Position numbers and translations under genes: made by a program. From Parcubacteria group bacterium RIFCSPLOWO2_01_FULL_48_18 (GTDB lineage Bacteria > Patescibacteriota > Minisyncoccia > UBA6257 > WO2-01-48-18), in assembly GCA_001824435.1 (NCBI GenBank), contig MHXH01000013.1, positions 2,346 to 66,345 on the forward strand: DNA of 64,000 bases, read 5' to 3'. The notes beneath the pieces were generated by a model. It saw nothing but the letters and a program-made list of their open reading frames with translations, did no database searches and had not been told where the DNA came from. Positions 888 to 44,759 of the stretch are shown here, in pieces. Within the stretch, counting starts at the first letter, position 1; each line of letters begins with the position of its first letter.

Positions 888-3675
<2,788 letters not shown>

Positions 3676-4330: not shown

Positions 4331-4334
4331 TGTT

Positions 4335-4420
4335 TCTAGAATTTAGAATTTGGAATTTAGAATTTGGAAAATCTGACTCCTATAATTCAGATTCCAGCTT
4401 CTAGATTCCAGATTCTAGAA
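4335..4420. repeat. intergenic heptamer-repeat hairpin (GAATTTA/GAATTTG x4 ... AGATTCC/AGATTCT x4, inverted halves)
   Basis: TCTAGAATTTAGAATTTGGAATTTAGAATTTGGAA ... TTCAGATTCCAGCTTCTAGATTCCAGATTCTAGAA fills the entire spacer between two pilin genes. Confidence 0.8.
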
Positions 4421-5035: not shown

Positions 5036-5045
5036 TACAGTAAGA

Positions 5046-5119
5046 CCATAGAATTTAAGTTCTTTTCTTGAAATTCCAAATTCTAAATTCTATCCGCCAA
5101 CCGGCGGACCAGATTCCGA
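5046..5119. repeat. intergenic heptamer-repeat hairpin + TCCGCC..GGCGGA palindrome
   Basis: ATAGAATTTAAG...GAAATTCCAAATTCTAAATTCTAT then TCCGCCAACCGGCGGACCAGATTCC. It is related to the element at 12853..12924. Confidence 0.75.
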
Positions 5120-6557: not shown

Positions 6558-6619
6558 GTTGATGAAGCTTCCGACAGCCGTTCCCAGGATAAATAAAAAA
6601 GGGTAATAAAAAAACGGGA

Positions 6620-6700
6620 ACAGAATTTAGGATTTAGAATTTAGAATTTAGGATTTAGGCAGTTCGCTAAATGCTAAATACCAAAAGCCAAATGCTCGGC
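6620..6700. repeat. tandem heptamer repeats (GAATTTAG/GGATTTAG x5; then CTAAATG-like x3)
   Basis: AGAATTTAGGATTTAGAATTTAGAATTTAGGATTTAGG...CTAAATGCTAAATACCAAAAGCCAAATGC lies between the pilD start and the pilA stop. Confidence 0.8.
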
Positions 6701-9182: not shown

Positions 9183-9272
9183 AAGGCTTTAGGCTTTAGG
9201 CTTTAGGCTTTAGGTATCTAGGCTTTAATTCCTAATTCCTAATGCCTAGCGCCTAATGTCTAATGTCTATTT
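9183..9272. repeat. intergenic heptamer-repeat hairpin (GGCTTTA x5 then xxxCCTA/GTCTAAT x6)
   Basis: AAGGCTTTAGGCTTTAGGCTTTAGGCTTTAGGTATCTAGGCTTTAATTCCTAATTCCTAATGCCTAGCGCCTAATGTCTAATGTCTA is the entire pilC-pilT spacer. The TTAGG and CCTAA halves are complementary. Confidence 0.8.
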
Positions 9273-12852: not shown

Positions 12853-12924
12853 GTTATTAGAATCTAGAATTTAGAATCTGGAATTTGGTCCGCCAGCTGG
12901 CGGACTAGATTCCAGATTCCAGGC
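12853..12924. repeat. intergenic heptamer-repeat hairpin around perfect palindrome TCCGCCAGCTGGCGGA
   Basis: TAGAATCTAGAATTTAGAATCTGGAATTTGG-TCCGCCAGCTGGCGGA-CTAGATTCCAGATTCCAGG is the entire PilP-like/PilO spacer. Confidence 0.8.
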
Positions 12925-19561: not shown

Positions 19562-19673
19562 TTTTTCTCATTTGTATCACAGCTGCGGACAAAAAGCCAA
19601 TAGGTTTGCCAGGGGTTCGTCAGAGTAGGCCCGCCTACTACACGTGTTGACCCCCGGGACATGAAGAGCTATA

Positions 19674-28245: not shown

Positions 28246-28378
28246 AGCTCCACGGGCTCACGCCCGCGGTATCCTTTCCGAATTGAGGGTGGAGCGAAAT
28301 CCGCCGAAGCAGAAGATTGGCTCGCATTCAGCCGCGGGCTTACGCCCACGGTCTTCTGCGAAGGCGGATAAATCTTCG
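28243..28378. repeat. ~135-bp structured intergenic repeat, copy 1 (second copy at 52210..52345)
   Basis: About 90% identical to 52210..52345. It begins at the TGA stop of cca and contains an inverted repeat (ATCCGCCGAAGCAGAAG ... CTTCTGCGAAGGCGGAT) and a direct repeat CGGGCT(C/T)ACGCCC. Confidence 0.8.
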
Positions 28379-31551: not shown

Positions 31552-31560
31552 TTATCCACA
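31552..31560 (+). promoter_or_regulatory. perfect DnaA box TTATCCACA
   Basis: Exact 9-mer consensus in intergenic DNA. It is preceded by AG, as at 39010 and 43336. Confidence 0.4.
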
Positions 31561-31746
31561 ATTGAGGCATTGCAGCATATGGGATGATCGAATAAAATTT
31601 TTACATTGGACTGCAGACTCATAATTATTGACCTTTGCCAAGTTTGACTTGGCGCCGACCTTAGCTCTTCTTTGCTCTTTGATCGCCTTATGGCCTTGTT
31701 GTTCTTTTACATATCGCTCTTTGTTTTTAGTTGTGTGAGGAAAAAA

Positions 31747-31777
31747 CTGTCCCGGCTTTGCTCGGGACTTTTTTTGA
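31747..31777. terminator. bidirectional intrinsic terminator
   Basis: AAAAAACT-GTCCCGG-CTTTGCT-CGGGAC-TTTTTTTG, with an A-run before and a T-run after the hairpin. Confidence 0.6.
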
Positions 31778-31977
31778 TGCTGCGGGTTGCGCGTCTGAGG
31801 ATACGCTTCGGCACTGTGAACAGTGTTACTTGTGGTGAGCGAAGTTGAACCAGAACCATTTTGAGAGTTAAAGTGGGTATATTTATATTCCTGACCCGCG
31901 TCCAGAAACAGTTGGTTTTTGGAAAAAATAAACAAGGCGACCTCCCGAAGGAAAACCGCTTGAAGAAATGAGATAGG

Positions 31978-32013
31978 GTGTGCGGAGAGGTTCCCTCGCA
32001 CACGCACTTTTTG
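31978..32013 (+). terminator. intrinsic terminator-like hairpin + T-run on plus strand
   Basis: GTGTGCGG-agaggttccct-CGCACAC followed by GCACTTTTTG. No plus-strand CDS lies upstream, so it may terminate a small RNA. Confidence 0.4.
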
Positions 32014-32424
32014 TTACCGAATAGGCGCTGGTGTCGGTGTCACGACCTCGATCTTCTCAAGTGCCTGAAGAAGCCGCCCCCCGAACCATTCGAGCTGTTT
32101 CCAAAATTTAGGGAGAAGCTCGACGACGACCACTCGGTTGGAGTCGCAACCCCAACTCTGAGATTGCATGATCGCGAGAAGCACGGCATGAGTCATCCGC
32201 TCAACCTTCACGATTCTACCCACCATACCGACGAGGTACATCACGTCTTGGACAGTGTCCTTCTGGAACGTGAGCCGGAGCTTCGCATCAGGTGTCAGAG
32301 CGCTGAGAACCTTCTTCCACTCATCTCTGGTCACCATCTTGGTTACCCCCTCCTTTAGTTGAGTCGAAACTACTCGGGAAAACAACCCCATGCCACCTTC
32401 CCGAAACTGTCTATAGTTTATCAC
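32014..32424 (-). CDS. hypothetical protein
   Basis: 136-aa ORF, divergent from clpB. The start could be an internal Met (MGLFSRV or MVTRDEW). No recognisable motifs. Confidence 0.35.
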   Translation of the reverse strand: MINYRQFREGGMGLFSRVVSTQLKEGVTKMVTRDEWKKVLSALTPDAKLRLTFQKDTVQDVMYLVGMVGRIVKVERMTHAVLLAIMQSQSWGCDSNRVVVVELLPKFWKQLEWFGGRLLQALEKIEVVTPTPAPIR

Positions 32425-32444
32425 AGCTTCAAGAGAAGGTCAAG

Positions 32445-32473
32445 TTGACACATGGCTGTAATCGTGCTATAAT
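32445..32473 (+). promoter_or_regulatory. sigma-70 consensus promoter of clpB
   Basis: TTGACA (32445-32450), a 17-nt spacer, then TATAAT (32468-32473), about 55 nt upstream of the clpB ATG. Confidence 0.65.
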
Positions 32474-32526
32474 TCCCTTAACAGATATATTGCAACCATC
32501 ACGCGTTTTGTATATAGTAAAAATTA

Positions 32527-35160
32527 ATGAAACCGTTTCAGCGATTTACCATAAAAGCACAGGAAGCGCTCCAGGGGGCGCAGGACTTGGCCGCCGAGAA
32601 AAACCACGGAGATCTTAAGGCAATCCACCTTTTGCATGCATTGTTGGGTCAGGAGGAGTCGTTGGTGCGGCCCGCGCTTTTGCGGACGGGCGTCAATATC
32701 GGCGCGCTTCAGCAGGAGGTGGAAGCTGAAGTGAGTAAGCTTCCGAAGATTTATAACAGCTCCACCGTCGGACAACTGTACCTTTCTCAGGAGTTGATGC
32801 AGGTGCTTGATCGAGCCGCAAAAGAAGCGGCGATGATTAAAGATGAGTTTGTTTCCTGCGAGCATCTTTTGTTGGGACTCGTGGGCGGCGCGTCGGCGGC
32901 GAGCGAAATACTGCATCGTTTTGGCGTCAGGCGCGAAGGCATTTTGCGGTCGCTTGCAGAGCTGCGGGGCTCGGTGCGTATTACCGATGAGGCGCCGGAG
33001 TCCAAATTTCAGGTGCTCGAGAAATACGCAATTAACCTGACTGCGATGGCGCGAGAGGGAAAGTTGGATCCGGTGATCGGCAGGGAAAATGAACTGCGCC
33101 GCCTGATGCAGGTATTGAGCCGCAGGACGAAAAACAATCCGGTGCTTATTGGCGAGTCGGGCGTCGGTAAAACCGCGATTGTCGAAGGGCTCGCGCAGCG
33201 GATCGTGAGCGGCGACGTGCCGGAAACGCTCAAGGGCAAAGAAATCGTAATGCTGGATTTGGGATCCTTGATTGCCGGCACGAAATTCCGCGGCGAATTC
33301 GAAGATCGCCTAAAAGCCTTTGTTAAAGAAATTAAAAGCGCCGCGGGCCGGCTTATATTGTTCATAGATGAGATTCATATGATTGTGGGCGCGGGCGCTG
33401 CCGAAGGAGCTGTTGACGCCTCCAATTTGCTCAAGCCGCCGCTTGCGCGCGGAGAACTTCACGCGATCGGCGCAACCACCATACGGGAATACCAGCGGCA
33501 TATTGAAAAGGATCCTGCGCTCGAGCGGAGATTTCAGCCGGTCGTCGTGGACGAGCCCTCTCTTGAAGACAGTATGGCGATTTTGCGCGGTCTCAAAGAA
33601 AAGTATGAAATTCATCACGGTGTGCGGATTAACGATTCGGCTATAGTCGCGGCGGTGAATTTATCCGCCCGGTATATCACCGACCGTTTTTTGCCCGACA
33701 AGGCAATCGACCTCATTGATGAGGCGGGTGCGGCGCTCCGCCTTTCTACCGAAAGCTTGCCGCAGGAAATTGATGTGGCCCGCCGAAATATTTTGCGGTT
33801 GGAAATTGAAAAAGAGGCGCTCAAAAAAGAAAGTTCTCAGGAAGCGAAGACGCGCCTCCGGGCAATCGACAGGGAATTGAACAAATTGAAAAAAAAGAAC
33901 GACGAGCTTTCGGCAAAATGGCACGCGGAGAAAATGTTTATGGAAGATCTCCACAATTTGCGCAAGCGCGTCGAAGATTTTCGGCGCGAAGCCGAAATTG
34001 CCGAGCGGGATTCGAATCTGGAACGCGTTGCCCAGATCCGCTACGGAGAATTGCCGAAAGCGGAAAAGGAATTGGGGGCGTTTGAAGATAAATATCTCAA
34101 CCGTAACAAACAGGAGGACCAGTTTATTCGGGAGGCGGTTGATGAAGAGGATATTGCCGCGGTGGTTTCGCGATGGACCGGCATTCAGGTTTCCAAGATG
34201 CTTGAATCGGAATCCGAAAAATTGTCGCGCGCCGAAAAAGAGCTGGAAAAGCGCGTGGTCGGCCAAGAAGAGGCGATCTCCGCAGTGGCGAATGCTCTGC
34301 GAAGAGCGCGCGCCGGTCTTTCCGATGAAAACAAGCCGCTCGCGAGCTTTATGTTTTTGGGGCCGACCGGCGTGGGGAAAACCGAGCTTGCGCGCGCGCT
34401 GGGGGAATTTATGTTCAACGACGAGAAAGCCATCGTGCGCATCGATATGAGCGAATACATGGAACGGCACGCGGTGGCCCGTCTTATCGGTTCTCCTCCC
34501 GGCTATGTGGGATTTGAAGAAGGCGGGCAGCTTACCGAGGTGGTCAGGCACCGTCCGTACAGTTTGATCTTGTTTGATGAGATTGAGAAGGCACACCCTG
34601 AGGCGTTTAATATTCTTTTGCAAGTGCTGGATAATGGCAGACTTACCGACGGCAAGGGGAGGGTCGTCAATTTCAAAAACTCGGTCATCATCATGACGTC
34701 GAACGTAGGAAGCGAATTCATTCAGCAGATGTCCCGGCTCGGTTTTTCGGAGAACGAAAAACCCGAGAAAGACATCGTCGATTCTTTTGAGGATTTCAAA
34801 GAAAAGATTAAAGAGGCCCTGCGCGACACCTTTAAGCCTGAATTCCTTAACCGCATCGACGAGATTATCATCTTCCGTCCGCTAACCACGAAAGATATGG
34901 AGAAAATTATCGATATTCAAATTGAGCGCCTCCAAGAGAGGCTTGCATCGAGGAGCATTAGAGTCGAAGTGGACCCTTCGGCCAGAAAATATTTGATCGC
35001 GCATGGATATGAACCGGAATTCGGCGCACGTCCGGTGAAACGGCTGATTCAAAAAGTTATTCTTGATCCGTTGGCAGACCAGATGGTGCGGCGGAAGATT
35101 AAAGAAGGAGCAAGGGTGACGGTGAAATCGGAAAACGAGATGGTGTACATTGAGCAATAG
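32527..35160 (+). CDS. clpB: ATP-dependent chaperone ClpB (Hsp100)
   Basis: 877 aa: Clp_N repeats, NBD1 Walker [16 protein letters not shown], a long middle coiled-coil, NBD2 Walker [16 protein letters not shown], and sensor-2 [10 protein letters not shown]. Confidence 0.95.
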
Positions 35161-35203
35161 CGACAAGTGACCAGTGACAAGTGGCCGGTGATTAAAGAAT
35201 CAC

Positions 35204-35938
35204 ATGTCGCATGTGACCTGTTACCAATTTTTGATTGTTCGTTCTTTCTTCTTTTTCGTATTGTTGGTGATTGTTGCCCTAACTGAATTCCACCCGATTG
35301 CGGTGATTGTTTTTTTATTTGCGTGCGCGTATTTTCTCGTGAGTCCTCTGTCGTCTCCGTTTCTCCCGGTTACTTTTGTTCTGGTTGTTGCTCTTTCGCT
35401 CAAGGTTCTTTCCCAAGCGGATCATGATATGTTGCGGGTGGCGTTTGCGGGAGCGTTTACCGCGCTGTATGTTTTATGGCAGTTTGCGCGGATTGATTTT
35501 CCCGCGCGTCACCGTTTTTATTTTCTGGTCGTGGGGATTTCTCTTGCCGTCTTTTTTTCGCAACTGTTTGCGATTGAGCCGGCCGATTTTGGAGCAGTAC
35601 ATGGATTTACTACGGCGCTCGTCGTATTTCTTTTGTTCATGGAATTTGTGAATTCGTGGCGTCTTCTGTATCCGCAATTCGATCTTACGCTTCGACGAAG
35701 AACGCTTTTTTCTTTCATGTTTGCCTTTTTGTTTACGCAGATGCTGTGGGCTTTGTCGTTGCTACCGATCGGTTTTTTAAACCTCTCGGCCATAGCCGGC
35801 CTGCTGTTTTTTATTTCATGCAATTGCTTATGGCACTTTTTGGATCATTCGCTTTCCCGGCATATTCTGTTTAGAAGCCTTACGCTTTTCGTAACGGCAT
35901 TTGGGGCGATTCTGTGGTTTTCAAAATGGAGCATTTAA
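35204..35938 (+). CDS. hypothetical polytopic membrane protein
   Basis: 244 aa with 6-7 hydrophobic helices and no recognisable motifs. Confidence 0.4.
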   Translation: MSHVTCYQFLIVRSFFFFVLLVIVALTEFHPIAVIVFLFACAYFLVSPLSSPFLPVTFVLVVALSLKVLSQADHDMLRVAFAGAFTALYVLWQFARIDFPARHRFYFLVVGISLAVFFSQLFAIEPADFGAVHGFTTALVVFLLFMEFVNSWRLLYPQFDLTLRRRTLFSFMFAFLFTQMLWALSLLPIGFLNLSAIAGLLFFISCNCLWHFLDHSLSRHILFRSLTLFVTAFGAILWFSKWSI

Positions 35939-35989
35939 GTTCTTCAGAACGCTTGATTTGGCGCCTCTTTTAGATTATTCTTTCATGTA

Positions 35990-36853
35990 ATGAAAGCAAT
36001 TGTTCCGGTCGCGGGGCTCGGCACCCGATTTTTACCCGCAACAAAAACGCAGCCGAAAGAAATGTTGCCGCTTGTGGATACGCCGGTGATCCAGTATGTC
36101 GTGGAAGAGATAGTGCGTTCCGGCATCAAGAACATTATCTTCGTCACCACAAGGCATAAGAAATGCCTGGAGGATTATTTTGACAGTCATTTTGAGTTGG
36201 AATCCGCCCTTGAAATGAGCGGCAAGTCGGAAACGGTACGCGAGCTTCGCCGCATTGTAAAACTTGCTCATTTTTCATTTGTGCGGCAGCATGCTCCTCT
36301 CGGAAACGGAGACGCCATTGTCAGCGCCGCGCATTTGTTGCACGACGAACCCGTTGTCGTCGCGTTTGGCGATGATATTTTTGTCGGCCGCGAGCTGGTG
36401 ACGAAAAAGCTTATCGAAGTATATCGCGCCTATCATGCGCCGGTATGCGTGCTGAAAAAGGTTCCGCGCAGTAAGGTGCATCAGTACGGCATCGTGCGCG
36501 CCAAAAAGATCGGCGCGGCAACCTATCAGATTTTTGATATCGTTGAAAAGCCAAGCGCAAAGAATGCGCCGTCGAATCTGGCGGTGTTCGGCAGATACGT
36601 CCTAACTCCGCAGATTATTGATTACTTGAGGGAGTTGCACCCCCCCTCGCGCAATAAGGAATTAGGCCTCACCGAGGCGTTGCGCTTGAACCTTCGGCGC
36701 GGCGGTTCTTTTTATGGTTGGGAGGTTTCTCCTCAAGCTCACTTCGATTGCGGCTCGAAGATAGATTTTTTAAAGGCCACGGTGTATTTCGGCCTCAAGC
36801 ATAGGGAATTGAAACATGAGTTTCGCTCGCATCTTCGCTCTCTCGAGTTATAA
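35990..36853 (+). CDS. galU: UTP--glucose-1-phosphate uridylyltransferase
   Basis: MKAIVPVAGLGTRFLPATKTQPKEMLPLVDTPVIQYVVEE is the GalU N-terminal signature. Confidence 0.85.
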   Translation: MKAIVPVAGLGTRFLPATKTQPKEMLPLVDTPVIQYVVEEIVRSGIKNIIFVTTRHKKCLEDYFDSHFELESALEMSGKSETVRELRRIVKLAHFSFVRQHAPLGNGDAIVSAAHLLHDEPVVVAFGDDIFVGRELVTKKLIEVYRAYHAPVCVLKKVPRSKVHQYGIVRAKKIGAATYQIFDIVEKPSAKNAPSNLAVFGRYVLTPQIIDYLRELHPPSRNKELGLTEALRLNLRRGGSFYGWEVSPQAHFDCGSKIDFLKATVYFGLKHRELKHEFRSHLRSLEL

Positions 36854-38891
36854 CATCTCCAAGTTTTTCATCTATGCGGCGCTGATAACCCCTGCGTTGG
36901 TTTCGACGACGATGTTTTTCCCCTTTATTTCTGGAAAGGTGCTGTATTTCCGTGTAGTCATCGAGTTGGCCCTGCTGTTTTTCATGTTCTATTTTTTGAG
37001 TGCGCCGCGTGATGTTTCCGAGTCTTTGAAAAAGATTTTCCGTCAGCCGCTGTTTATAGCGGCGAGTATCTTCGTCGCCGCCTTTTTGCTTACCTCGATT
37101 ACCGGCGTGAACTTTTACAACAGTTTTCTCTCTAACTTTGAGCGGGGCGATGGCGCGTTCCAGTTGCTGCATCTGTATATTTTCTTTTTTCTGCTGCTGG
37201 CGTATTTTCCCGCCAAAAAAGATTGGTTGAAGCTTTTGAAGTTCAGCCTGCTGGTAAGTCTTTTCATCGCGCTGTACGCCATAGCGCAGCAACTCCGGTC
37301 GCCGTATGTGATCGGCGATTATAGCCGCCCACCTGGCCCCCTGGGAAATCCGTCATATCTCTCCGTCTACGCGATGTTCCACTTATTATTTGCCCTTTTT
37401 GTGATCTATGGGACAAAACCGCTGGCAGGAAAGTTGGTTTGGCTTTCCATCGCGCTTTTAAACCTGTACGCTCTTTTGAAAGCTCAAACCAGGGGAACGA
37501 TTATAGGTTTGGCAGTTGCCGTTTTCATAGCATTTTTGATTTTGTCGTTTCGGTCTCGGCTACCGACGTTTTTAGATCGAAAAAGAAATTTAAAAGAAAA
37601 CCACAAGGGCTCCGGTTCGCATTTTTTGGGCAGCGCATGGCCTTATCGGAGCATATTGGCGGCGCTTATATTGTTCGGTGCCGTCTTCTACTTTACAAGG
37701 GCGTCGTGGCCAGTATGGGAGAAAGTTCCGGGCCTCAACCGTTTTGCCAGCGAAGATGCTTTTAAACCGTTTAAGACCGACTCTCTCGTAAGCCGCTATT
37801 TAACGTGGACTTCTGCCATACAAGGATTTAAAGAAAGACCGATTTTTGGGTGGGGGGCAGAGAATTTTCCCTACGTATTTGATAAATATTACAATCCGAA
37901 GCGGTACGGGTCAGAAAGCTGGTTTGATAGGTCCCACAATTGGATTTTGGATTATTTGATCAACGGAGGAGCTGTGCTTCTGGCCGCGTATGTGGGAATG
38001 TTCGTAGTATATTACTACGGCATCGTGAAAAAATCTAAAGTGGTTGCGGGCAAAAAAGATGTTGAAGTTCCTCCGATGAAAAAACCGTACGCTCTGTACG
38101 TCGGTTTTCTGACCCTGCCGATCGCGTATCTCATTCAGAATTTGTTTCTTTTCGACGTGCTATCGATTTATTTGGTGTTGTTCACGTTCTTCGCGTTTGC
38201 GATACATCTCTTGGAGAAATTCGAATTGACTGTACCGCAGATTGGCGACGCCGAGACCGCCTTTGTGATCCGGCCGTTTAGCGCAGTTGCGGGCCTGCTA
38301 CTCGTATTGTTCACCGGTACGCTCCTGTATCTCACCGCATATCTTCCCTATAAGAAGAACCTGTTTATTCGGGAAGGACTTGCGGTTTCGTCGACCGACC
38401 CCTTCAAGGGCATATCGGTTTATGACAAGGCGCTAAAATTTTACTCTCCCATAGGCCAATACGAGACAATCGAGCAAGTGGGTGGCGGCATGGCAAACCT
38501 GTTCTCGGCGCTTATCAGGAACCGTGCGGTGCTTAAACCGGAAGTGGCTCCGCTGACGATTGGCTTTGCCAATGAGGTGTTGGATTACGCCAAGCGGAAC
38601 AATCAGGTGGTAAGCGTAAAACCATTATATATGTTTGGAATCGCCAATCTGGAGGCCGGAGTCGTGTTTCAGGATCCGAAGTATTTTCAGATTGCGCGAG
38701 AGATTATGGATGAGGGATATCGTGCTGCGCCTTCGCGATTCGAGTTTATCTTTGGCCTGCTTGATGTTGCCTTGGAGCAGCGGGATAAAGTTCTCGCGGA
38801 GCAAATGCTTAAGCGGGGGCGAGAACTACGGCCTGATTTGGAGGAGCGTTATAAAAAATATGAGGAGGTTCTTGGCAGCTTTGATTCTTGA
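36816..38891 (+). CDS. O-antigen ligase-like (Wzy_C/PglL-like) polytopic membrane protein with C-terminal TPR-like tail, paralog 1
   Basis: Many TM helices, the periplasmic-loop motif GWGAENFPYVFDKYYNP and the motif RSHNWILDYLINGG, the latter shared with the paralogs at 49882 and 52354. Its start overlaps the end of galU. Confidence 0.7.
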   Translation: MSFARIFALSSYNISKFFIYAALITPALVSTTMFFPFISGKVLYFRVVIELALLFFMFYFLSAPRDVSESLKKIFRQPLFIAASIFVAAFLLTSITGVNFYNSFLSNFERGDGAFQLLHLYIFFFLLLAYFPAKKDWLKLLKFSLLVSLFIALYAIAQQLRSPYVIGDYSRPPGPLGNPSYLSVYAMFHLLFALFVIYGTKPLAGKLVWLSIALLNLYALLKAQTRGTIIGLAVAVFIAFLILSFRSRLPTFLDRKRNLKENHKGSGSHFLGSAWPYRSILAALILFGAVFYFTRASWPVWEKVPGLNRFASEDAFKPFKTDSLVSRYLTWTSAIQGFKERPIFGWGAENFPYVFDKYYNPKRYGSESWFDRSHNWILDYLINGGAVLLAAYVGMFVVYYYGIVKKSKVVAGKKDVEVPPMKKPYALYVGFLTLPIAYLIQNLFLFDVLSIYLVLFTFFAFAIHLLEKFELTVPQIGDAETAFVIRPFSAVAGLLLVLFTGTLLYLTAYLPYKKNLFIREGLAVSSTDPFKGISVYDKALKFYSPIGQYETIEQVGGGMANLFSALIRNRAVLKPEVAPLTIGFANEVLDYAKRNNQVVSVKPLYMFGIANLEAGVVFQDPKYFQIAREIMDEGYRAAPSRFEFIFGLLDVALEQRDKVLAEQMLKRGRELRPDLEERYKKYEEVLGSFDS

Positions 38892-38927
38892 CTCTTGGCC
38901 CTCGGCCCCCCTGGCATTAATAATGGG

Positions 38928-38966
38928 CTTACAATCCTGCCGCAGGCGGGATTGTAACTTTTTTTC
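38928..38966 (+). terminator. intrinsic terminator
   Basis: TTACAATCCTGCC-GCAG-GCGGGATTGTAA followed by CTTTTTTT. Confidence 0.7.
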
Positions 38967-39009
38967 GGGGCGCTCGTTATATGTATAACAGGAATGTAAA
39001 GGGCATGAG

Positions 39010-39018
39010 TTATCCACA
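39010..39018 (+). promoter_or_regulatory. perfect DnaA box TTATCCACA
   Basis: Exact consensus 9-mer in the long leader upstream of the 1167-aa surface protein gene. TCTATAAT follows at about 39044. Confidence 0.4.
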
Positions 39019-39557
39019 GAAATTTTTGCTGATCTGCCCGCAGCTCATCTATAATTTATCAAATATGGGCTTAGATCTTAAGGGTGAGGCTTAAGGTCTA
39101 TTTGTGTCCTAGAACCATTTGGTTCCGGACTGGGGCGTACCGGATGGTACTGCCCCGTTGGCGGCTGGACCGGGTTTTTCGCAGATGAGCGTACGTCTTT
39201 TCTGCGCAGGCTCCGTGTTCACCTTGTCCGATTTTATTGAAAAAGAGGCCTCACCATTCGGAGGGGCTCTTTTGTTTAATTGGCGCCTCGCTGCGTCAGA
39301 TAATCATTGCCTGTTCGCACGATTTGATTGTATACAGTCGTTGTCTGTCGCAGTAAGTTGCCAATCTTATCCAGGAGCTAAGGTCGACCCGTTTCTTTAA
39401 ATATCAAAAGGAGATGGGGCTCTCGACGGACGGATGGGCCAACTTATCCCGTTCAAACGGGAAGAAACGAGATAATATAAAGGTCAATTCTGATTGAGCC
39501 GATTGAATACCTTAAATGATATTCATGAAGCGATAATCGGATTAAATAAATACATAT

Positions 39558-42500
39558 ATGAGTAAGTTGTCCAATAAGATTACTTCAGTAACTCTTTCGC
39601 TGACAACTGCGGTATGGCTTTCCGGAGCTGCTATGTTGGTGCCGGTTGCGCACGGACAATCTGTTGATGAGTTGCAGGCTCAAATTTCGGCCTTGCTGGC
39701 TCAAATTCAGACGCTCCAGTCGCAGCTTACCACTCTTCAGGGCGACAGTCCTGCTCCTTCTCTGCCTTCGTTTACCAGCGACCTCACCGTTGGTTCGAAA
39801 GGCGATGCAGTGAGCAATCTGCAAACATTCTTGAAGAATGAAGGCGCCGACGTGTATCCGGAAGGATTGGTGACCGGCTACTTTGGTTCTTTGACCAAGG
39901 CCGCTGTCATGCGCTACCAAGACAAGTACGCTGACGCGGTTTTGGCTCCATTGGGCCTTTCGAGCGGAACCGGTTACTTTGGCGCAGGAACGCGGGCGCA
40001 TGTCAACTCTCGGTTAGCGGTGGCAACGCCGCCTCCGTCGGTGACTCCGCCTCCGTCAACGACGCCTCCTCCTTCCGTAACGCCGCCTCCAGAAGTTACA
40101 CCGCCTCCGTCAGTTACACCGCCTCCGGCTGCGGCTGCAGGATTAACGGTTGCGCTCGATTCGGGAAATCCTTCGGGCTCAACCCTTGTGGCTGATTTAA
40201 CCAGCGGGCAAGGTGCGCAGGTGTTGGCAGAAGTATTGCGGCTTAAACTCACGAATGGCGATGCGTCTGATGCGAAAGTCACCTCGCTTAAACTCCATCG
40301 GATCGGCGTAAGCGCGGACAGCGATTTCGCCAACGCCTATCTCTATGATGGCGCGACGCGGCTTTCTGACAGCGCGTCCGTTACGAGCGCGTACTTCACC
40401 TTCTCCAACGCGAACGGTCTTTTCACCGTTCCTGCGGGAGGATCAAAGTCTGTCAGTTTGAAAGTTGATTTGGCCAACGGCGCTACGTCCGGCAAGACAT
40501 TCCAGTTCGGCCTTATGGCCGCCGGAGATGTCACTGCCAATGCCACGGTTAATCTCGCTGCCTCATTCCATGGCAATGAGTTTAGAACCGCGCAGGCGTC
40601 TGACCTCGGCCAGATTACGCTTACCAACCAGAATCCGAGCGGCGCAACCAATGTGGATGCCGGCACGACCAACTATGAAGCCTGGAGATTTAGCGCGCAG
40701 GCAACCGACCAGAAAGTGGAGCTTTCTTACTTTAAGTTCACCTTGGTCGGCACAGCCGATTATGACGCGCTTCAGAACTTTAAGCTTCATCTCGATGGCG
40801 TACAGGTTGGTTCTTCAGCGGCCCTCATGAACAGCGACAAAACGCTTGTCTTTGATCTGTCTGGCGCCCCGGTTACAATAAACGCCGGAGTAACCAAACA
40901 GGTATCACTTCGGGCGGATGTCATGAAGGGGTCTGGAAGAACGTTCCGCTTCAGACTCGCGGAAGCAGTTGACGTGGTAGCCAAAGACCTTGGCTATGGC
41001 GTGAACATTAAGGCTAACCAAGCAGATGTGTACACGCTTATTCAGGGCGGCGGAGATACGACGATCAATTCCGGCAGCCTTACGATCACCAAGTCGTCTG
41101 ATTCGCAGTCATCGAACATTGCTTTAACCGCTACTGGCGTGAAACTGGCGACGTTTGATTGGAAAGCGGTCGGCGAAGACATAAAAGTTTCGACCGTTAC
41201 GCTCCAGATCGTTGACGGCGCCAACTCCTTCACCAACATCAGAAACGTGAAGCTGTTGGCTGACGGATTGCAGGTGGGTACGACCGCGGCAACCGTTGCG
41301 GTTGACACCAACCAAGCGTTCAGCGCAGGAAGCTCGTTCGTCATTAAGGCCGGTACCACGAAGAAATTGGATGTCTATGCAGACGTTCAGTCTGCCTCTG
41401 GCGCAGCCGATGCAATGGCTGGCAGCGATACCTTTACGGTTCGCTTGATAGCAGGCTCGGCAAATGCCTTACGGCAGAGCGCAGGTACTACCCTTGATGC
41501 CCCGGGCTCCAATGCTGATGGCAATTCATTAACGGTATCTGCCGGCACTGTTTCAGGCACGCTCAACAGCTCGATTGCAAATATGACCGTTGTTGAGAAT
41601 GCGCAGAATCAGCTTGTCGGTTCGTGGCTTTTGACAGCTCCAACCGAGCAGGCAGTTGATGTTACGTCGCTCACGCTTATCGACCGAAATAACGGCGACA
41701 GCGCCAATGCGGCGTATGGCCTTGGCGGTCCGTTGGATGCCCTCGTTCTCAAGAGCGGAGGCACGCAGTACGGCCAGACCATCAATTCGCCCTCTACTGT
41801 TTCGGGCACAACGCAAGTGTTTAACCTGTCCACTCCTTTGAGGGTGAACGCCGGCCAGTCGATTCAGATAGATTTGTATGCCAACATTTTGAGCAATGCA
41901 AACGCTCGCTGGACCGACACTGACCGCGTACGGGTAAGCACGCTTACTGCGACGGGCATTGTGACCAACAGCTCCGTGTCATTAGCCGCTGCCGTAAACG
42001 GTCAAGCAGTGACTGTTTCAACCGGCGCGGTATTGACCATGGCGAACGAAGTATCGCCGACCATGCCTACTGCAGGCTGGCTGGTTTCCGGAGATACGGG
42101 AGTCACGCTGGCTGCTTGGAAGTTCTCTGCCGACAATACGGAAGATGTTAAAGTTACCAGAGTCCAGGTTCTTGAAGATGGAACCGACGACTTGCCCGGT
42201 AATGCCAAGAACATCAAGCTGTATGTCGACGGAGTCCAGGTGGGCTCGACCGTGCCTGCGGTTACCAATGGCTCTAGCAACACCGCTTTGTTTGAGAACA
42301 CCACCGCAGGTCTCTTCACTGTTCCTCGTAACAGCAACAAGACCCTCGTGTTGAAGGTAGACCTTACTGACAATACGAACGCGACGTTCTCAGCCGACGG
42401 CTCAGACTTGAGGGGCAACCTCAATGTGACGAGCGGTGCAGCAACAGCTACGACCAATGTTTCCGCAAAAGGCGCAACCTCCGGTGCGTTTGCAACCCTG

Positions 42501-43061
42501 GCTGCCGGCGTAGGAGCCGACCATCAGGGGAACAACTTCAAGGTTGTAAAGACCCGACCGGTCTTCGCGCTGTGCGAGACAGAAGGTTCTGGCTGCGCTG
42601 CGGTAACCTCGGGTGAAACCCTGGTTCCTGGTACTGTGGAAGTATTCAGGTTTAGCGTCACTGCCCACTCGGCAGAAGATGTCGTCTTTAACGGCACGAA
42701 CCACAACTTGCGGCTCACCGTCACCGGTGCTCCGTCTGCGGCGACTGCCTACAACTTCGACCTCTATGATGCTTCTACCAACACCACGGTAGCGACCCAG
42801 GTTGCTACGGCGACTGCCTCGGGCGGTTTCGTGGACTTCTCTACGGTGAACACCACGGTTCCGAAAGGCACGACCAAGACGTACTATGTCAAGGCTGCAC
42901 TCAATAACTTCAGCGCGATAGGTAACTCCTTCCAGCTGTCGCTTAAGAATGCGGCTGCAGACGTGTCGTTTAGCGATGGCACCGCAAGCGCTGATCTCTC
43001 GGCTGCCAACTTTGTCGGCTGGGGTCTGCCGCTCGATGGTGAAACGCTGGTCAAGCCATAA
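39558..43061 (+). CDS. giant secreted surface protein: signal peptide, peptidoglycan-binding domain, Pro-rich linker, ~5 tandem beta-rich repeat domains
   Basis: SP MSKLSNKITSVTLSLTTAVWLSGAAMLVPVAHG. PG_binding_1-like segment (GSKGDAVSNLQTFLKNEGADVYPEGLVTGYFGSLTKAAVMRYQ). (T/V)PPPS x5 linker. Recurring ~190-aa units each containing xKLxxDG(V/L)QVG(S/T). Confidence 0.7.
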   Translation: MSKLSNKITSVTLSLTTAVWLSGAAMLVPVAHGQSVDELQAQISALLAQIQTLQSQLTTLQGDSPAPSLPSFTSDLTVGSKGDAVSNLQTFLKNEGADVYPEGLVTGYFGSLTKAAVMRYQDKYADAVLAPLGLSSGTGYFGAGTRAHVNSRLAVATPPPSVTPPPSTTPPPSVTPPPEVTPPPSVTPPPAAAAGLTVALDSGNPSGSTLVADLTSGQGAQVLAEVLRLKLTNGDASDAKVTSLKLHRIGVSADSDFANAYLYDGATRLSDSASVTSAYFTFSNANGLFTVPAGGSKSVSLKVDLANGATSGKTFQFGLMAAGDVTANATVNLAASFHGNEFRTAQASDLGQITLTNQNPSGATNVDAGTTNYEAWRFSAQATDQKVELSYFKFTLVGTADYDALQNFKLHLDGVQVGSSAALMNSDKTLVFDLSGAPVTINAGVTKQVSLRADVMKGSGRTFRFRLAEAVDVVAKDLGYGVNIKANQADVYTLIQGGGDTTINSGSLTITKSSDSQSSNIALTATGVKLATFDWKAVGEDIKVSTVTLQIVDGANSFTNIRNVKLLADGLQVGTTAATVAVDTNQAFSAGSSFVIKAGTTKKLDVYADVQSASGAADAMAGSDTFTVRLIAGSANALRQSAGTTLDAPGSNADGNSLTVSAGTVSGTLNSSIANMTVVENAQNQLVGSWLLTAPTEQAVDVTSLTLIDRNNGDSANAAYGLGGPLDALVLKSGGTQYGQTINSPSTVSGTTQVFNLSTPLRVNAGQSIQIDLYANILSNANARWTDTDRVRVSTLTATGIVTNSSVSLAAAVNGQAVTVSTGAVLTMANEVSPTMPTAGWLVSGDTGVTLAAWKFSADNTEDVKVTRVQVLEDGTDDLPGNAKNIKLYVDGVQVGSTVPAVTNGSSNTALFENTTAGLFTVPRNSNKTLVLKVDLTDNTNATFSADGSDLRGNLNVTSGAATATTNVSAKGATSGAFATLAAGVGADHQGNNFKVVKTRPVFALCETEGSGCAAVTSGETLVPGTVEVFRFSVTAHSAEDVVFNGTNHNLRLTVTGAPSAATAYNFDLYDASTNTTVATQVATATASGGFVDFSTVNTTVPKGTTKTYYVKAALNNFSAIGNSFQLSLKNAAADVSFSDGTASADLSAANFVGWGLPLDGETLVKP

Positions 43062-43120
43062 GGCACTTTGGTTCTGAATCGATCCCGGTTGTTCTGATTC
43101 TTGTCGGAACTGAACCGGAA

Positions 43121-43156
43121 AAACAGAAAAACCCGCATTCGCGGGTTTTTCTGTTT
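43121..43156. terminator. bidirectional intrinsic terminator (16-bp stem)
   Basis: AAACAGAAAAACCCGC-attc-GCGGGTTTTTCTGTTT is a perfect inverted repeat containing A/T runs. Confidence 0.7.
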
Positions 43157-43335
43157 CAGGACTTACGCAGCTGGGCTTGAAAATCGTGTCCTTCAATTCA
43201 AATCAAAAATCCAGATTTTGAGTCATTCCCTGATTTCAACTGCGTAAGTCCTGTGTTTGAAGAGCCATTCACTCGGAGGGTCATCGATGAAGGGGCACCG
43301 ACGAGAGGCTATCGATTGAAAACCGACTTGAAAAG

Positions 43336-43357
43336 TTATCCACAAAAGTTGTCCACA
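43336..43357 (+). promoter_or_regulatory. two tandem DnaA boxes (TTATCCACA perfect; TTGTCCACA one mismatch)
   Basis: AGTTATCCACAAAAGTTGTCCACA lies immediately upstream of palindrome P1. Confidence 0.45.
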
Positions 43358-43361
43358 TTCT

Positions 43362-43397
43362 ATGCACTAAATTATGCTATAGCATAATTTAGTGCAT
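43362..43397. promoter_or_regulatory. 36-bp perfect palindrome P1 (core ATGCTATAGCAT), putative operator
   Basis: ATGCACTAAATTATGCTATAGCATAATTTAGTGCAT equals its own reverse complement. It is followed by two TATAAT hexamers and then the PaaX-like gene. Confidence 0.6.
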
Positions 43398-43453
43398 TCG
43401 CTATAATAACCGTATCTGTATAATAATCTGTATAGTACCCACAGTTTTTTGTC

Positions 43454-44053
43454 ATGAGACACAAGCCCAGGAAAAATACCAATACCGGAAAAGGCGCGAA
43501 GGGCGTGAAGGTTGTGAGGGAAATTCTCGAAGCGTTGGCTGGCGGCACGGTGATAGGGCTTGTCGCGGCCACTTCGCCTTTTTTTGTGCGCGAGCTTGTG
43601 AAAGGATTTTTAGAGCAGAGGCATTATCAAAAAATGCGCGATGAACAAAAGTATATGTGGGGTTTCCGCTATATCATTTCTCGGGAACTTATTGAGATGA
43701 AAGAAGCAGATGGCATGGTAACAGTGGTATTAACTGCAAAGGGAGAAAAGCGTGTTCTCCGTTACAACCTTGAAGAAATGAAATTGAAAAAATCCGCCAG
43801 TTGGGATCACAAATGGCGCATTGTTATTTATGACGTTCCCAGCGATAAACGGACTGCCCGAAACGCGCTGAATGAATATATGAAGCGCTTGGGATTTTAT
43901 CGCCTGCAAAAAAGCGTTTGGATATATCCTTATGAATGTCGGGATGAAATTGATTTTGTTTCCTCTGTTTTTGAGGTAAGAGAATACTGTCTTTATATCA
44001 CCGCCAACCGCTTTGAATACGATAAGGTCCTTACCGTGTTTTTTAAACTGTAG
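43454..44053 (+). CDS. PaaX-family-like putative transcriptional regulator (N-terminal wHTH + C-terminal PaaX_C/Cas2-like domain)
   Basis: 199 aa. The N-terminus FRYIISRELIEMKEADGMVTVVLTAKGEKRV looks like a wHTH wing. Then WDHKWRIVIYDVPSDKRTARNALNEYMKRLGFYRLQKSVWIYP matches the PaaX WDGKW...GFG..S pattern and the Cas2 [VI]YDV..KR..(17)..R.Q.SV(F/W) pattern. Confidence 0.55.
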   Translation: MRHKPRKNTNTGKGAKGVKVVREILEALAGGTVIGLVAATSPFFVRELVKGFLEQRHYQKMRDEQKYMWGFRYIISRELIEMKEADGMVTVVLTAKGEKRVLRYNLEEMKLKKSASWDHKWRIVIYDVPSDKRTARNALNEYMKRLGFYRLQKSVWIYPYECRDEIDFVSSVFEVREYCLYITANRFEYDKVLTVFFKL

Positions 44054-44195
44054 GAAGCCCCAGCTCCTTAAAATTATTTGTTTCTCCGCGCGAATACCCC
44101 GCGGCTTGCCGCGGGGATGAGCGCGGCTAAGAAACAAATAAAATAAAATACCACGCCGTGAACAGCTGTGGTCACAATAGACTTTTATTTCACCC

Positions 44196-44258
44196 TCTCT
44201 TGTATATTCTTCCTTTCTTGTATTCTTCTCTTGTATTCTTTCTGTATTTGTTTGTATA
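44196..44258 (+). repeat. iteron-like direct repeats (TCTTGTATTCTTC x3, degenerate 4th)
   Basis: CTCTTGTATATTCTTCCTTTCTTGTATTCTTCTCTTGTATTCTTTCTGTATTTGTTTGTATA lies immediately upstream of palindrome P2. Confidence 0.55.
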
Positions 44259-44288
44259 CACCAAATTATGCTATAGCATAATTTGGTG
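44259..44288. promoter_or_regulatory. 30-bp perfect palindrome P2 (core ATGCTATAGCAT)
   Basis: CACCAAATTATGCTATAGCATAATTTGGTG. Confidence 0.6.
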
Positions 44289-44295
44289 CGTAGGT

Positions 44296-44304
44296 TGTGG
44301 ATAA
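44296..44304 (-). promoter_or_regulatory. perfect DnaA box (TGTGGATAA = reverse complement of TTATCCACA) followed by GGATAAT repeats
   Basis: TTGTGGATAATGCGGATAATTTGGACGATTAGGATAATTTTAGG contains three GGATAAT units. ATGGATAAA lies near 44402. Confidence 0.45.
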
Positions 44305-44568
44305 TGCGGATAATTTGGACGATTAGGATAATTTTAGGAGTGATTTCTGGAAAAGAAATTTGGCAGAAATATGCCAGGAATATTCAGGTTTACCAACCGC
44401 ATGGATAAATTTTTTACCCGCGCATTAAAAAACTCCTGCCGGAATGTGGAAGGATGAATGGTTAAGTATGGCAAGGCTTTTGCTGCGGGATTTCGCCCCA
44501 CGAAAATTTACCAGAGATAAGAGGGTTATGGCTGTGGGGTCGTGGAGTTTTATTTTACGCACTAAATT

Positions 44569-44600
44569 ATGCTATAGCATAGTTTAGTGTATAAACGTGG
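44569..44600. promoter_or_regulatory. 32-bp near-palindrome P3 (core ATGCTATAGCAT, 2 mismatches to P1)
   Basis: GCACTAAATTATGCTATAGCATAGTTTAGTGT lies about 160 bp upstream of the 44760 gene. Confidence 0.55.
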
Positions 44601-44759
44601 GGGTAACGTGGGAGGGGTCATTGACAAAAAATTGTTGCTCGATTACAATGGGAGCATTGTTGATTGTCCTTGATTTTGAGATAAACGCAATCGAAAAATC
44701 TTAGAAAAATTTTATAGAAATTTCATCTCGGTTTAGCTACAATATCACCATTCTTCATT

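What the first reader, a model, noticed from the sequence alone, without database searches (positions are those of the whole stretch)
31552..44304. Four perfect DnaA boxes (TTATCCACA), all intergenic
Exact consensus 9-mers occur at 31552, 39010, 43336 and 44296 (reverse strand). There are also one-mismatch boxes at 43349 and about 44402, and GGATAAT repeats nearby.

About 0.5 perfect boxes would be expected by chance in 64 kb on both strands. All four are non-coding, and three share the extended context AGTTATCCACA.

This suggests either DnaA acting as a transcription factor on surface-protein and regulator genes, or a cluster (43.3–44.4 kb) that is a replication origin.
Basis: seen in the sequence. 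Interest (0 to 1): 0.55.

Follow-up and report, generated by a model that had tools for sequence, protein, structure and literature searches.

The report
DnaA boxes at promoters, not origin
Four perfect binding sites for the replication initiator DnaA sit in non-coding DNA of an uncultured Parcubacteria (CPR) genome; they most likely control nearby promoters rather than mark the replication origin, and the same layout recurs across CPR genomes.

Summary
TTATCCACA occurs four times, all intergenic, against 0.05 expected in intergenic DNA (P about 3e-7).

The origin reading fails. GC skew stays positive on both sides of 43-44 kb. No dnaA or dnaN lies within -9 to +70 kb. The region has 4 boxes in about 1 kb, whereas real dnaA-linked origins in my comparison set have 6-11 in 160-500 bp.

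The transcription-factor reading is supported by comparison only; binding was not shown. Boxes 31552 and 39010 lie 32 and 31 nt upstream of a predicted -10 hexamer, 7-9 nt upstream of a -35, so the box is centred near -48. In 80 other CPR loci the 9-mer is about 16-fold enriched in intergenic DNA only, and it shows the same orientation-specific spacing. A metagenome scan repeats the spacing peak. The genes downstream there include dnaA, dnaN, lexA, mraZ, rsmH, pilins and homologues of the window's 1167-aa surface protein.

Boxes 43336 and 44296 are different. Each is paired with a one-mismatch box and abuts a 36-nt palindrome. Together they form inverted arms around a PaaX/Cas2-like regulator gene. 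The palindrome flanking is CPR-wide; the attached boxes are not, and their role is unresolved.

This is a new member of a known kind.

The parts
31552..31560 (+). Perfect DnaA box (AGTTATCCACA with flank), site 1
31570..31598 (+). Predicted sigma-70-type promoter TTGCAG-17-TAAAAT. The box ends 9 nt before the -35 and 32 nt before the -10.
   Evidence: Read from the sequence; spacing class. Prediction only.
31749..31775 (+). Terminator-like hairpin plus T-run. It would end a roughly 170-nt transcript from the site-1 promoter. No convincing ORF lies in between.
   Evidence: fold z = -2.1
39010..39018 (+). Perfect DnaA box (GAGTTATCCACAG), site 2
39026..39055 (+). Predicted promoter TTGCTG-18-TATAAT. 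The box ends 7 nt before the -35 and 31 nt before the -10.
   Evidence: Read from the sequence; spacing class
39062..39285 (+). Highly structured 5' leader with a terminator-like hairpin (about 39240-39278), upstream of the surface-protein gene
   Evidence: z = -4.1, 0 of 200 shuffles as stable
39558..43061 (+). 1167-aa secreted protein (signal peptide, coiled coil, PG_binding_1). Its homologues in other CPR genomes also carry an upstream perfect box.
43336..43357 (+). Tandem pair of boxes: TTATCCACA at 43336 and TTGTCCACA at 43349, with a 13-nt period
43362..43397 (.). Palindrome P1, 36 nt, perfect, centre TGCTATAGCA
43454..44053 (+). 199-aa PaaX_M/Cas2-like protein with a weak winged-helix-like N-terminal half; a presumed DNA-binding regulator
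44074..44141 (.). Long G+C-rich hairpin with outer arms 44074-44085 and 44130-44141; read as a possible bidirectional terminator after the regulator gene
   Evidence: pair I21
44213..44248 (+). T-rich repeat, period 13 nt, three copies (consensus CTTTCTTGTATT), 31-37% G+C, next to P2 and the boxes
44256..44291 (.). Palindrome P2 (perfect over 44259-44288). It forms an inverted arm with P1 plus a box.
44296..44313 (-). Abutting pair of boxes: TTATCCACA at 44296 and TTATCCGCA at 44305. Two-mismatch sites follow at 44323-44331 and 44400-44408.
44556..44593 (.). Palindrome P3, a third copy with no box, 28 nt upstream of the next promoter
44621..44649 (+). Predicted promoter TTGACA-17-TACAAT for the operon of the 196-aa gene and the 1487-aa LTD-domain gene

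Best explanation
The four 9-mers are selected, high-affinity DnaA-box-type sites that act on transcription. They are not an origin.

The organism is an uncultured member of the Parcubacteria group (CPR/Patescibacteria).

Sites 31552 and 39010 belong to a promoter class found across CPR genomes. The layout is AGTTATCCACA, then 7-11 nt, a -35 hexamer, 17-18 nt, and a -10 hexamer. This puts the box at about -52 to -44. The proposed mechanism is that DnaA bound there contacts or stabilises RNA polymerase, as described for the upstream high-affinity boxes of E. coli nrdAB. Output would then follow the level and nucleotide state of the initiator. Site 39010 would drive a long structured leader and then the gene for a large peptidoglycan-binding surface protein. 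Site 31552 would drive a short transcript of about 170 nt.

Sites 43336/43349 and 44296/44305 are closely spaced pairs, the arrangement that favours cooperative DnaA binding. They sit on the outer side of two copies of a 36-nt palindrome that flank a PaaX/Cas2-like winged-helix regulator gene. I propose the palindromes are that regulator's operators, and that the box pairs add DnaA input to the weak promoter-like sequences inside the palindromes.

Shown: the sequences, their statistics, the spacing, the comparative recurrence, and the absence of origin signatures. Inferred: the promoters, DnaA as the binding protein, the direction of regulation, and the role of the palindromes.
For: In the window:
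- There are 4 intergenic boxes against 0.052 expected.
- The box-to-(-10) gaps are 32 and 31 nt at sites 1 and 2.

In 80 independent CPR loci (1.16 Mb):
- 19 boxes are intergenic. 400 composition-matched permuted 9-mers gave a mean of 1.18 and a maximum of 6. Coding DNA is not enriched (10 against 7.1).
- Gaps of 30-34 nt to a -10-like hexamer account for 8 of 24 hits (binomial p = 7e-5). The opposite orientation gives 2 of 22.
- Downstream genes are a pilin, PilM, RpoB and PG_binding_1 surface proteins. The L075 protein is a collinear homologue of the window's 1167-aa protein (E = 6e-43).

In the metagenome scan for AGTTATCCACA-N15-45-TATAAT:
- 36 of 127 non-redundant matches have gaps of 30-32 (p = 2e-9), with a second spike at 28. 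A -35-like hexamer is present in 41% of the peak class against 21% elsewhere.
- Downstream genes are DnaA x3, DnaN, LexA x4, MraZ, RsmH, MscS-like x4, PG_binding_1 x3 and pilins x2.
- Several are named by their sources as Falkowbacteria, Nomurabacteria, Yonathbacteria or Patescibacteria.
- 12 of the 120 hit loci carry dnaA, so the pattern does pick out classical DnaA-controlled regions.

From the literature:
- DnaA bound at upstream high-affinity boxes can activate nrdAB by stabilising RNA polymerase (PMC8203912).
- E. coli DnaA prefers pairs of closely spaced sites in vivo (PMC11317965, title and abstract).
Against: - No binding or expression data exist for this organism.
- All promoters and start sites are consensus predictions.
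- This genome's own dnaA gene, origin and genome-wide box count could not be retrieved.
- No close relative exists (next ClpB 78% identical), so site-by-site footprinting was impossible.
- Sites 3 and 4 do not have the 30-34 nt spacing.
- In 80 other CPR loci the palindromes flanking PaaX-like genes carry no adjacent perfect box; two have a single one-mismatch site nearby. The box-palindrome link is therefore specific to this genome.
- Gene calls for the comparison loci were crude (longest ORFs).
- Surface proteins and pilins are unusual DnaA targets.
Confidence: 0.55

Rival explanations
1. The 43.3-44.4 kb cluster is the chromosomal origin. It would be bipartite, with box clusters on both sides of a gene and a T-rich unwinding element.
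For: - Two strong pairs of boxes flank a gene.
- A T-rich repeat of three 13-nt units lies 47 nt before TGTGGATAA. By my recollection, not checked here, this is the polarity of the E. coli 13-mers and box R1.
- 44176-44275 is nominally the least stable 100-bp duplex in the window, but only by about 1 kcal/mol.
Against: - GC skew is positive on both sides: about +0.07 for 28-43 kb and +0.10 for 44-63 kb. Cumulative skew rises monotonically through the region.
- An additive model of replication and coding bias cannot fit an origin at 43.5 kb, because the minus-strand genes at 3-19.5 kb also give positive skew.
- No dnaA or dnaN lies within -9 to +70 kb.
- There are only 4 boxes of one mismatch or fewer in about 980 bp. 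dnaA-linked origins have 6-11 in 160-500 bp.
Confidence: 0.03
2. The boxes, above all the paired ones at 43.3 and 44.3 kb, are DnaA titration or DnaA-cycle sites (datA-, DARS- or Bacillus DBC-like). They would tune initiation rather than transcription.
For: - Closely spaced same-orientation boxes of graded quality suit DnaA oligomer growth: perfect, one-mismatch, then two-mismatch at 44296-44331.
- The only skew sign change in the 79 kb available is weak and lies at about 0-3 kb. If that is the origin, the boxes are origin-proximal, as reported for E. coli (PMC12371093).
Against: - Sites 1 and 2 are single boxes with exact promoter phasing, which titration does not require.
- The window's intergenic box density is only about 3.6 times the CPR average (4 in 9.1 kb against 19 in 154 kb).
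- IHF sites were not assessed.
- The origin position is not established.
Confidence: 0.12
3. The motif is bound by another CPR protein, not by DnaA, and only coincides with the DnaA-box consensus.
For: - No experimental link to DnaA exists.
- The apparent regulon (pilins, surface proteins, MscS-like proteins) is atypical for DnaA.
- I found no paper on DnaA boxes in CPR.
Against: - The match is exact over 9 nt, and mostly 11 nt (AGTTATCCACA).
- The same box-to-promoter spacing occurs upstream of dnaA and dnaN in non-CPR bacteria in the same scan.
- lexA and mraZ/rsmH fit a replication and cell-cycle regulon.
Confidence: 0.15
4. 43336-44313 is a mobile or plasmid-derived cassette. The box-plus-palindrome arms would be its terminal inverted repeats or a cryptic plasmid-type origin (DnaA boxes, A+T-rich repeats, winged-helix gene).
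For: - 49-nt inverted arms flank a single gene.
- G+C is about 42% locally against about 49% in the window.
- Further palindrome copies lie at 44556 and 49843.
- PaaX-like genes flanked by twin palindromes recur in many CPR genomes, often several per genome.
- From my own knowledge: the IS50 outside end contains a DnaA box, and iteron plasmids combine DnaA boxes, A+T-rich repeats and a winged-helix Rep protein.
Against: - No transposase or Rep domain is present (Pfam gives only PaaX_M and Cas2).
- No target-site duplication is evident by eye.
- There is no similarity to plasmids or phages.
- The arrangement is identical in all 10 strain-level contigs.
- Boxes are absent from the palindromes of other CPR cassettes.
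Confidence: 0.07

Closest known systems
DnaA-regulated promoters of model bacteria (E. coli nrdAB and dnaA; B. subtilis dnaA-dnaN, sda, yydA and others; Caulobacter gcrA, ftsZ, podJ)
   Same: Consensus 9-mer in a promoter region. Upstream high-affinity boxes are proposed to stabilise RNA polymerase (PMC8203912). dnaA and dnaN promoters share the same spacing in my scan.
   Different: The organism belongs to the CPR. The target genes are a surface protein and a short RNA here, and elsewhere in CPR pilins, lexA, mraZ/rsmH and MscS-like genes. A single box lies at one fixed, orientation-specific position (centre about -48), recurring across many genomes. Nothing has been tested experimentally.
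E. coli datA/DARS and B. subtilis DnaA-box clusters
   Same: Non-origin intergenic sites made of closely spaced boxes of graded quality, as at 43336/43349 and 44296/44305/44323.
   Different: There are only 2-3 boxes per site. IHF sites were not assessed. The sites are embedded in a palindrome-flanked regulator cassette. An effect on initiation is unknown.
Bacterial oriC
   Same: DnaA boxes lie next to a T-rich tandem repeat of 13-nt units.
   Different: No skew inversion, no dnaA/dnaN neighbourhood, and box density several-fold lower than in real origins.
REP elements flanking RAYT genes (for the palindromes only)
   Same: A gene is flanked on both sides by copies of the same palindrome, with further copies nearby.
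   Different: The enclosed protein is PaaX_M/Cas2-like with a winged-helix-like half, not a Y1 transposase. The palindromes are zero-loop and 26-54 nt long, with a conserved 8-bp centre. This is a resemblance from memory and was not tested.

Membership tests
Chromosomal replication origin (oriC) | Dense cluster of DnaA boxes (typically 5 or more within a few hundred bp) | tested here: not met
   4 boxes with one mismatch or fewer are spread over 43336-44313, with a gene in between. dnaA-linked origins have 6-11 in 160-500 bp.
Chromosomal replication origin (oriC) | Coincides with the cumulative GC-skew minimum | tested here: not met
   Skew is positive on both sides of the region. The only weak minimum in -9 to +70 kb lies at about 1-2 kb.
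Chromosomal replication origin (oriC) | Usual neighbourhood of dnaA/dnaN | tested here: not met
   Pfam on 40 of the roughly 47 called window ORFs, the called genes of the flanks, and tblastn with E. coli DnaA all found none.
Chromosomal replication origin (oriC) | A+T-rich unwinding element next to the boxes | tested here: inconclusive
   A T-rich repeat of three 13-nt units lies at 44213-44248 (31-37% G+C). Its duplex stability is lowest in the window only by about 1 kcal/mol.
Chromosomal replication origin (oriC) | Supports initiation in vivo | not testable with these tools
   Needs marker-frequency analysis or an autonomous-replication assay.
DnaA-controlled promoter (DnaA as transcription factor) | Match to the DnaA-box consensus | tested here: met
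   Four exact TTATCCACA; three with the AG flank.
DnaA-controlled promoter (DnaA as transcription factor) | Box placed in or next to a promoter | tested here: met
   Met for sites 1 and 2: predicted promoters with gaps of 32 and 31 nt to the -10, the class that is enriched. At sites 3 and 4 only weak promoter-like sequences inside the palindromes were found.
DnaA-controlled promoter (DnaA as transcription factor) | Box conserved upstream of homologous genes | tested here: met
   Tested for site 2 only. Boxes lie upstream of PG_binding_1 surface-protein genes in L075, L041, L179, L204 and L134.
DnaA-controlled promoter (DnaA as transcription factor) | DnaA binds the site and transcription depends on DnaA | not testable with these tools
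   No binding or expression data are available.
DnaA titration or DnaA-cycle locus (datA / DARS / DBC) | Several closely spaced boxes outside oriC | tested here: inconclusive
   Pairs or triplets only.
DnaA titration or DnaA-cycle locus (datA / DARS / DBC) | IHF or Fis site, and an effect on the DnaA-ATP/ADP cycle | not tested
   No reliable consensus scan was run. The function needs experiments.
Insertion sequence or transposon | Terminal inverted repeats plus an encoded transposase and target-site duplication | tested here: not met
   Inverted arms are present, but there is no transposase domain and no evident duplication.

The most novel reading that the evidence does not exclude
In CPR/Patescibacteria, which have very few regulators, the replication initiator DnaA may serve as a global transcription activator. 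It would act through one high-affinity box at a fixed position (about -48). The regulon would include pili, peptidoglycan-anchored surface proteins, an MscS-like channel, the division-cluster head genes mraZ/rsmH, and lexA. This would tie surface remodelling, division and the SOS response to initiation status. In this genome the same input would also have been wired to a palindrome-flanked PaaX/Cas2-like regulator cassette.
Probability: 0.35. Interest if true: 0.7.

Novelty: new member of a known kind. Interest (0 to 1): 0.5.

Why it matters
CPR bacteria are uncultured and have tiny genomes, and almost nothing is known about their transcription control. Here a universal motif is enriched about 16-fold in their intergenic DNA. 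It sits at one fixed promoter position, upstream of recurring gene classes: surface proteins, pilins, lexA, mraZ/rsmH and MscS-like genes. This gives a concrete, testable regulon and a candidate master regulator. It is also a caution for origin prediction: isolated perfect DnaA boxes in CPR contigs do not mark oriC.

Tried and rejected
- **Origin at 43-44 kb.** Rejected on skew, neighbourhood and box density.
- **Extending the contig to find dnaA.** I gained 9.1 kb on the left and 5.9 kb on the right. There was no dnaA and no further perfect box.
- **Genome-wide count for this genome.** Not possible. The genome did not appear among the genome-contig hits, and contig walking is restricted.
- **Footprinting with close relatives.** All 10 contigs carrying the regulator are at least 99.8% identical, the next ClpB is 78% identical, and the intergenic DNA has no alignable homologues.
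- **Rfam.** Only two tRNAs passed threshold. Sub-threshold hits in 31.4-45 kb look like terminators.
- **Small ORFs downstream of the boxes.** None was convincing.
- **Plasmid or phage similarity of 43.1-44.8 kb.** None.
- **De novo 7-mer enrichment upstream of predicted promoters.** Noisy; AGTTATC reached only about 4-fold.
- **One-mismatch boxes.** No spacing peak and no enrichment.
- **Boxes beside PaaX-cassette palindromes in other CPR genomes.** No perfect box in any; two palindromes have a single one-mismatch site nearby.
- **Literature on DnaA boxes in CPR.** Nothing found.
Full report
**1. Observation.** TTATCCACA occurs exactly four times in the window: 31552+, 39010+, 43336+ and 44296-. 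The expectation is 0.43, and none of 100 dinucleotide-preserving shuffles reached four.

I built a gene map from long ORFs, Pfam hits and two tRNAs. On this map 14% of the window is intergenic, and all four boxes lie there. A first-order Markov model expects 0.052 intergenic boxes, giving P(>=4) = 3e-7. Counting the inverted duplicate once gives P(>=3) = 2e-5. Three sites share the flank AG.

Some details of the finding need correction.
- One-mismatch boxes are not enriched overall (16 against 11 expected).
- The true one-mismatch neighbours are 43349+ (TTGTCCACA) and 44305- (TTATCCGCA).
- The site 'about 44402' has two mismatches (TTATCCATG, 44400-44408).

**2. Source and context.** The window matches contigs of 'Parcubacteria group bacterium RIFCSPLOWO2_01_FULL_48_18' (GCA_001824395.1) and near-identical metagenome contigs.

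The gene content is typical of the CPR: a type IV pilus cluster, a PMT-type and a GT4 glycosyltransferase, three Wzy_C (two with TPR repeats) proteins, a Lamin-tail-domain giant protein, ClpB, and a PaaX_M/Cas2-like protein. The nearest ClpB in the protein collection is 78% identical and the rest are about 70%. No relative is therefore close enough for intergenic alignment.

**3. Origin hypothesis.** GC skew is positive across 3-64 kb. I extended the sequence 9.1 kb to the left and 5.9 kb to the right using contigs that encode the terminal genes.

- Cumulative skew rises monotonically through 28-63 kb. Its only minimum is weak and lies at about 1-2 kb.
- The minus-strand genes at 3-19.5 kb also give positive plus-strand skew. 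An additive model of replication bias and coding bias fits only if the plus strand is the leading strand throughout. An origin at 43.5 kb would predict about -0.10 at 3-19.5 kb, but about +0.045 is observed.
- No dnaA or dnaN lies anywhere in -9 to +70 kb, and there are no further perfect boxes.
- Real dnaA-linked origins picked up incidentally by my metagenome scan carry 6-11 boxes (one mismatch or fewer) in 160-500 bp. Here there are four in 980 bp, with a gene between them.
- One formal resemblance remains. A T-rich repeat of three 13-nt units (44213-44248) lies upstream of TGTGGATAA. Its duplex stability is not distinctive.

I put the origin reading at about 3%.

**4. Sites 31552 and 39010.** Both are followed by a plausible sigma-70-type promoter.
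- Site 1: box, 9 nt, TTGCAG, 17 nt, TAAAAT.
- Site 2: box, 7 nt, TTGCTG, 18 nt, TATAAT.

The gaps from the box to the -10 are 32 and 31 nt. Assuming a transcription start about 7 nt after the -10, the box spans about -53 to -44.

Site 2 leads into a strongly structured leader (z = -4.1) that contains a terminator-like hairpin. About 500 nt downstream lies the gene for a 1167-aa protein with a signal peptide, a coiled coil and a PG_binding_1 domain. Site 1 leads to a stretch of about 170 nt with no convincing ORF, ending at a terminator-like hairpin.

**5. Generality in CPR genomes.** I fetched 80 loci (1.16 Mb) from CPR genomes, anchored on PaaX-like genes.
- They hold 29 perfect boxes against 12.4 expected from base composition.
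- 19 of the 29 are intergenic, although only 13% of the DNA is.
- Against 400 composition-matched permuted 9-mers, the intergenic count is 19 compared with a mean of 1.18 and a maximum of 6. The coding count is unremarkable, 10 compared with 7.1.
- For box followed by a -10-like hexamer, 8 of 24 hits (7 boxes) fall at gaps of 30-34 nt (p = 7e-5). The opposite orientation gives 2 of 22. One-mismatch boxes show no peak.
- Downstream genes include a pilin, PilM, RpoB and two PG_binding_1 surface proteins. One of these is a collinear homologue of the window's 1167-aa protein (E = 6e-43).

**6. Metagenome scan.** I searched for AGTTATCCACA-N{15,45}-TATAAT.
- Of 127 non-redundant matches, 36 have gaps of 30-32 nt, where 12 are expected if gaps were uniform (p = 2e-9). 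There is a further spike at 28 nt.
- A -35-like hexamer at the correct spacing is twice as frequent in the peak class, 41% against 21%.
- Downstream genes in the peak class are DnaA (3), DnaN, LexA (4), MraZ, RsmH, MscS-like TM-helix proteins (4), PG_binding_1 surface proteins (3) with long leaders, and pilins (2).
- Exact-sequence look-ups assign the LexA, MraZ, MscS-like and surface proteins to Falkowbacteria, Nomurabacteria, Yonathbacteria and 'Patescibacteria group'.
- 12 of the 120 loci contain dnaA.

The scan therefore recovers classical DnaA-controlled regions as well as a recurring set of CPR genes with the same architecture. This is the main argument that the binding protein is DnaA. 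Upstream high-affinity boxes that stabilise RNA polymerase are described for E. coli nrdAB (PMC8203912).

**7. Sites 43336 and 44296.** These differ from sites 1 and 2.
- Each perfect box has a one-mismatch partner. The spacing is a 13-nt period at 43336/43349, and the boxes abut at 44305/44296.
- Each pair abuts a 36-nt palindrome with centre TGCTATAGCA (P1 at 43362-43397, P2 at 44256-44291).
- The two units are inverted 49-nt arms, 86% complementary. They flank a 199-aa gene whose product has a PaaX_M/Cas2-like domain and a weak winged-helix-like N-terminal half.
- A third copy, P3, lacks boxes and lies 28 nt upstream of the strong promoter of the next operon.

Twin palindromes around PaaX-like genes turn out to be general in the CPR. 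At least 13 of the 80 loci have near-identical, zero-loop perfect palindromes (26-54 nt) on both sides of the gene, and about 32 have one on at least one side. The arms vary between genomes, but the 8-bp centre is conserved in type: GCGATCGC, ACGATCGT, GCTATAGC, GCCATGGC, GCGGCCGC. 27.5% of upstream regions have arms of 12 nt or more, against 4% of random windows.

None of these other palindromes carries a perfect DnaA box, and only two have a single one-mismatch site nearby. The association is therefore specific to this genome.

My reading is that the palindromes are operators or structural elements of the PaaX-like regulator, and that the paired boxes add DnaA input. Closely spaced pairs are the preferred in vivo DnaA targets in E. 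coli (PMC11317965). A datA- or DARS-like role, or a role as ends of a mobile or plasmid-derived cassette, cannot be excluded. However, there is no transposase or Rep domain and no plasmid or phage similarity.

**8. Comparison with what is known, and verdict.** DnaA acting as a transcription factor through promoter-proximal boxes is well established in model bacteria. I found nothing on DnaA boxes in CPR/Patescibacteria in the searchable literature.

The window's feature is therefore a new member of a known kind. The wider pattern is what makes it moderately interesting: a fixed-position box, about 16-fold intergenic enrichment, and a recurring CPR gene set.

**9. Limits.**
- Promoters are predictions.
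- Gene calls for the comparison loci are crude.
- The metagenome sample is truncated.
- This genome's dnaA, origin and genome-wide box count were out of reach.
- The window's intergenic box density is only about 3.6 times the CPR average.

Noticed in passing
window 43362-43397 and 44256-44291 (also 44556-44593); loci such as L022 9879-9932 and 10632-10671, L046 9662-9709 and 10438-10481, L033, L039, L057, L070, L085, L086, L094: Across CPR genomes, PaaX_M/Cas2-like genes are flanked on both sides by near-identical, zero-loop perfect palindromes of 26-54 nt. The arms vary between genomes, but the 8-bp centre is conserved in type (GCGATCGC, ACGATCGT, GCTATAGC, GCCATGGC, GCGGCCGC). At least 13 of 80 loci have them on both sides and about 32 of 80 on at least one side; 27.5% of upstream regions against 4% of random windows have arms of 12 nt or more. 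No literature was found. The layout resembles REP elements around RAYT genes, but with a different protein.
   Followed up: partly
window 49843-49888: A 46-nt perfect palindrome has the same centre TGCTATAGCA as P1-P3 but different arms. It lies between the LTD-domain gene and the next Wzy_C-TPR gene and overlaps that gene's ATG at 49882.
   Followed up: partly
window 39062-39557; L075, L179, L204, L134, L198 leaders: Genes for the PG_binding_1 surface proteins have long leaders: 147-540 nt lie between the box and the start codon, 277 nt or more in all but L041. In five non-window loci a hairpin with the loop sequence GTCGAA lies about 40-90 nt before the ATG. The window's leader is strongly structured (z = -4.1) but has no clear copy of that hairpin.
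   Followed up: partly
window 460-490, 4330-4365, 5045-5090, 6618-6650, 12855-12880; 9180-9225: Tandem 7-nt repeats occur in the spacers of the minus-strand type IV pilus gene cluster: TAGAATT/AGAATTT in 3-5 copies, and AGGCTTT in 4 copies at 9180. Most sit just upstream of gene starts.
   Followed up: no
window 28241-28376 and 52208-52343: A 136-nt G+C-rich repeat, 93% identical, overlaps or directly follows the stop codon of an unrelated gene at each site (the CCA-adding enzyme gene and a Wzy_C-TPR gene). It contains hairpin-forming segments.
   Followed up: no
window about 1-3000 and 19562-19673, with the left extension L011: The only sign change of GC skew in the 79 kb available is weak. 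It lies near the left end of the window, with gyrB about 7 kb further left. Gene orientation switches from minus to plus at 19.6 kb. Neither place has DnaA boxes.
   Followed up: partly
L166 1409-3337, L177 1-1185, L205 782-2287: In three contigs whose LexA N-termini resemble the Falkowbacteria LexA of L214 (their own taxonomy was not checked), the ORF downstream of the box-promoter combines the LexA DNA-binding domain, Peptidase_S24 and an N6_N4 DNA-methylase domain in one reading frame. The ORFs were called mechanically, so the fusion needs checking.
   Followed up: no
window 44213-44248: A T-rich tandem repeat of three 13-nt units lies 47 nt before TGTGGATAA. It formally resembles the E. 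coli 13-mer and R1 layout, although the locus is not an origin by skew.
   Followed up: partly
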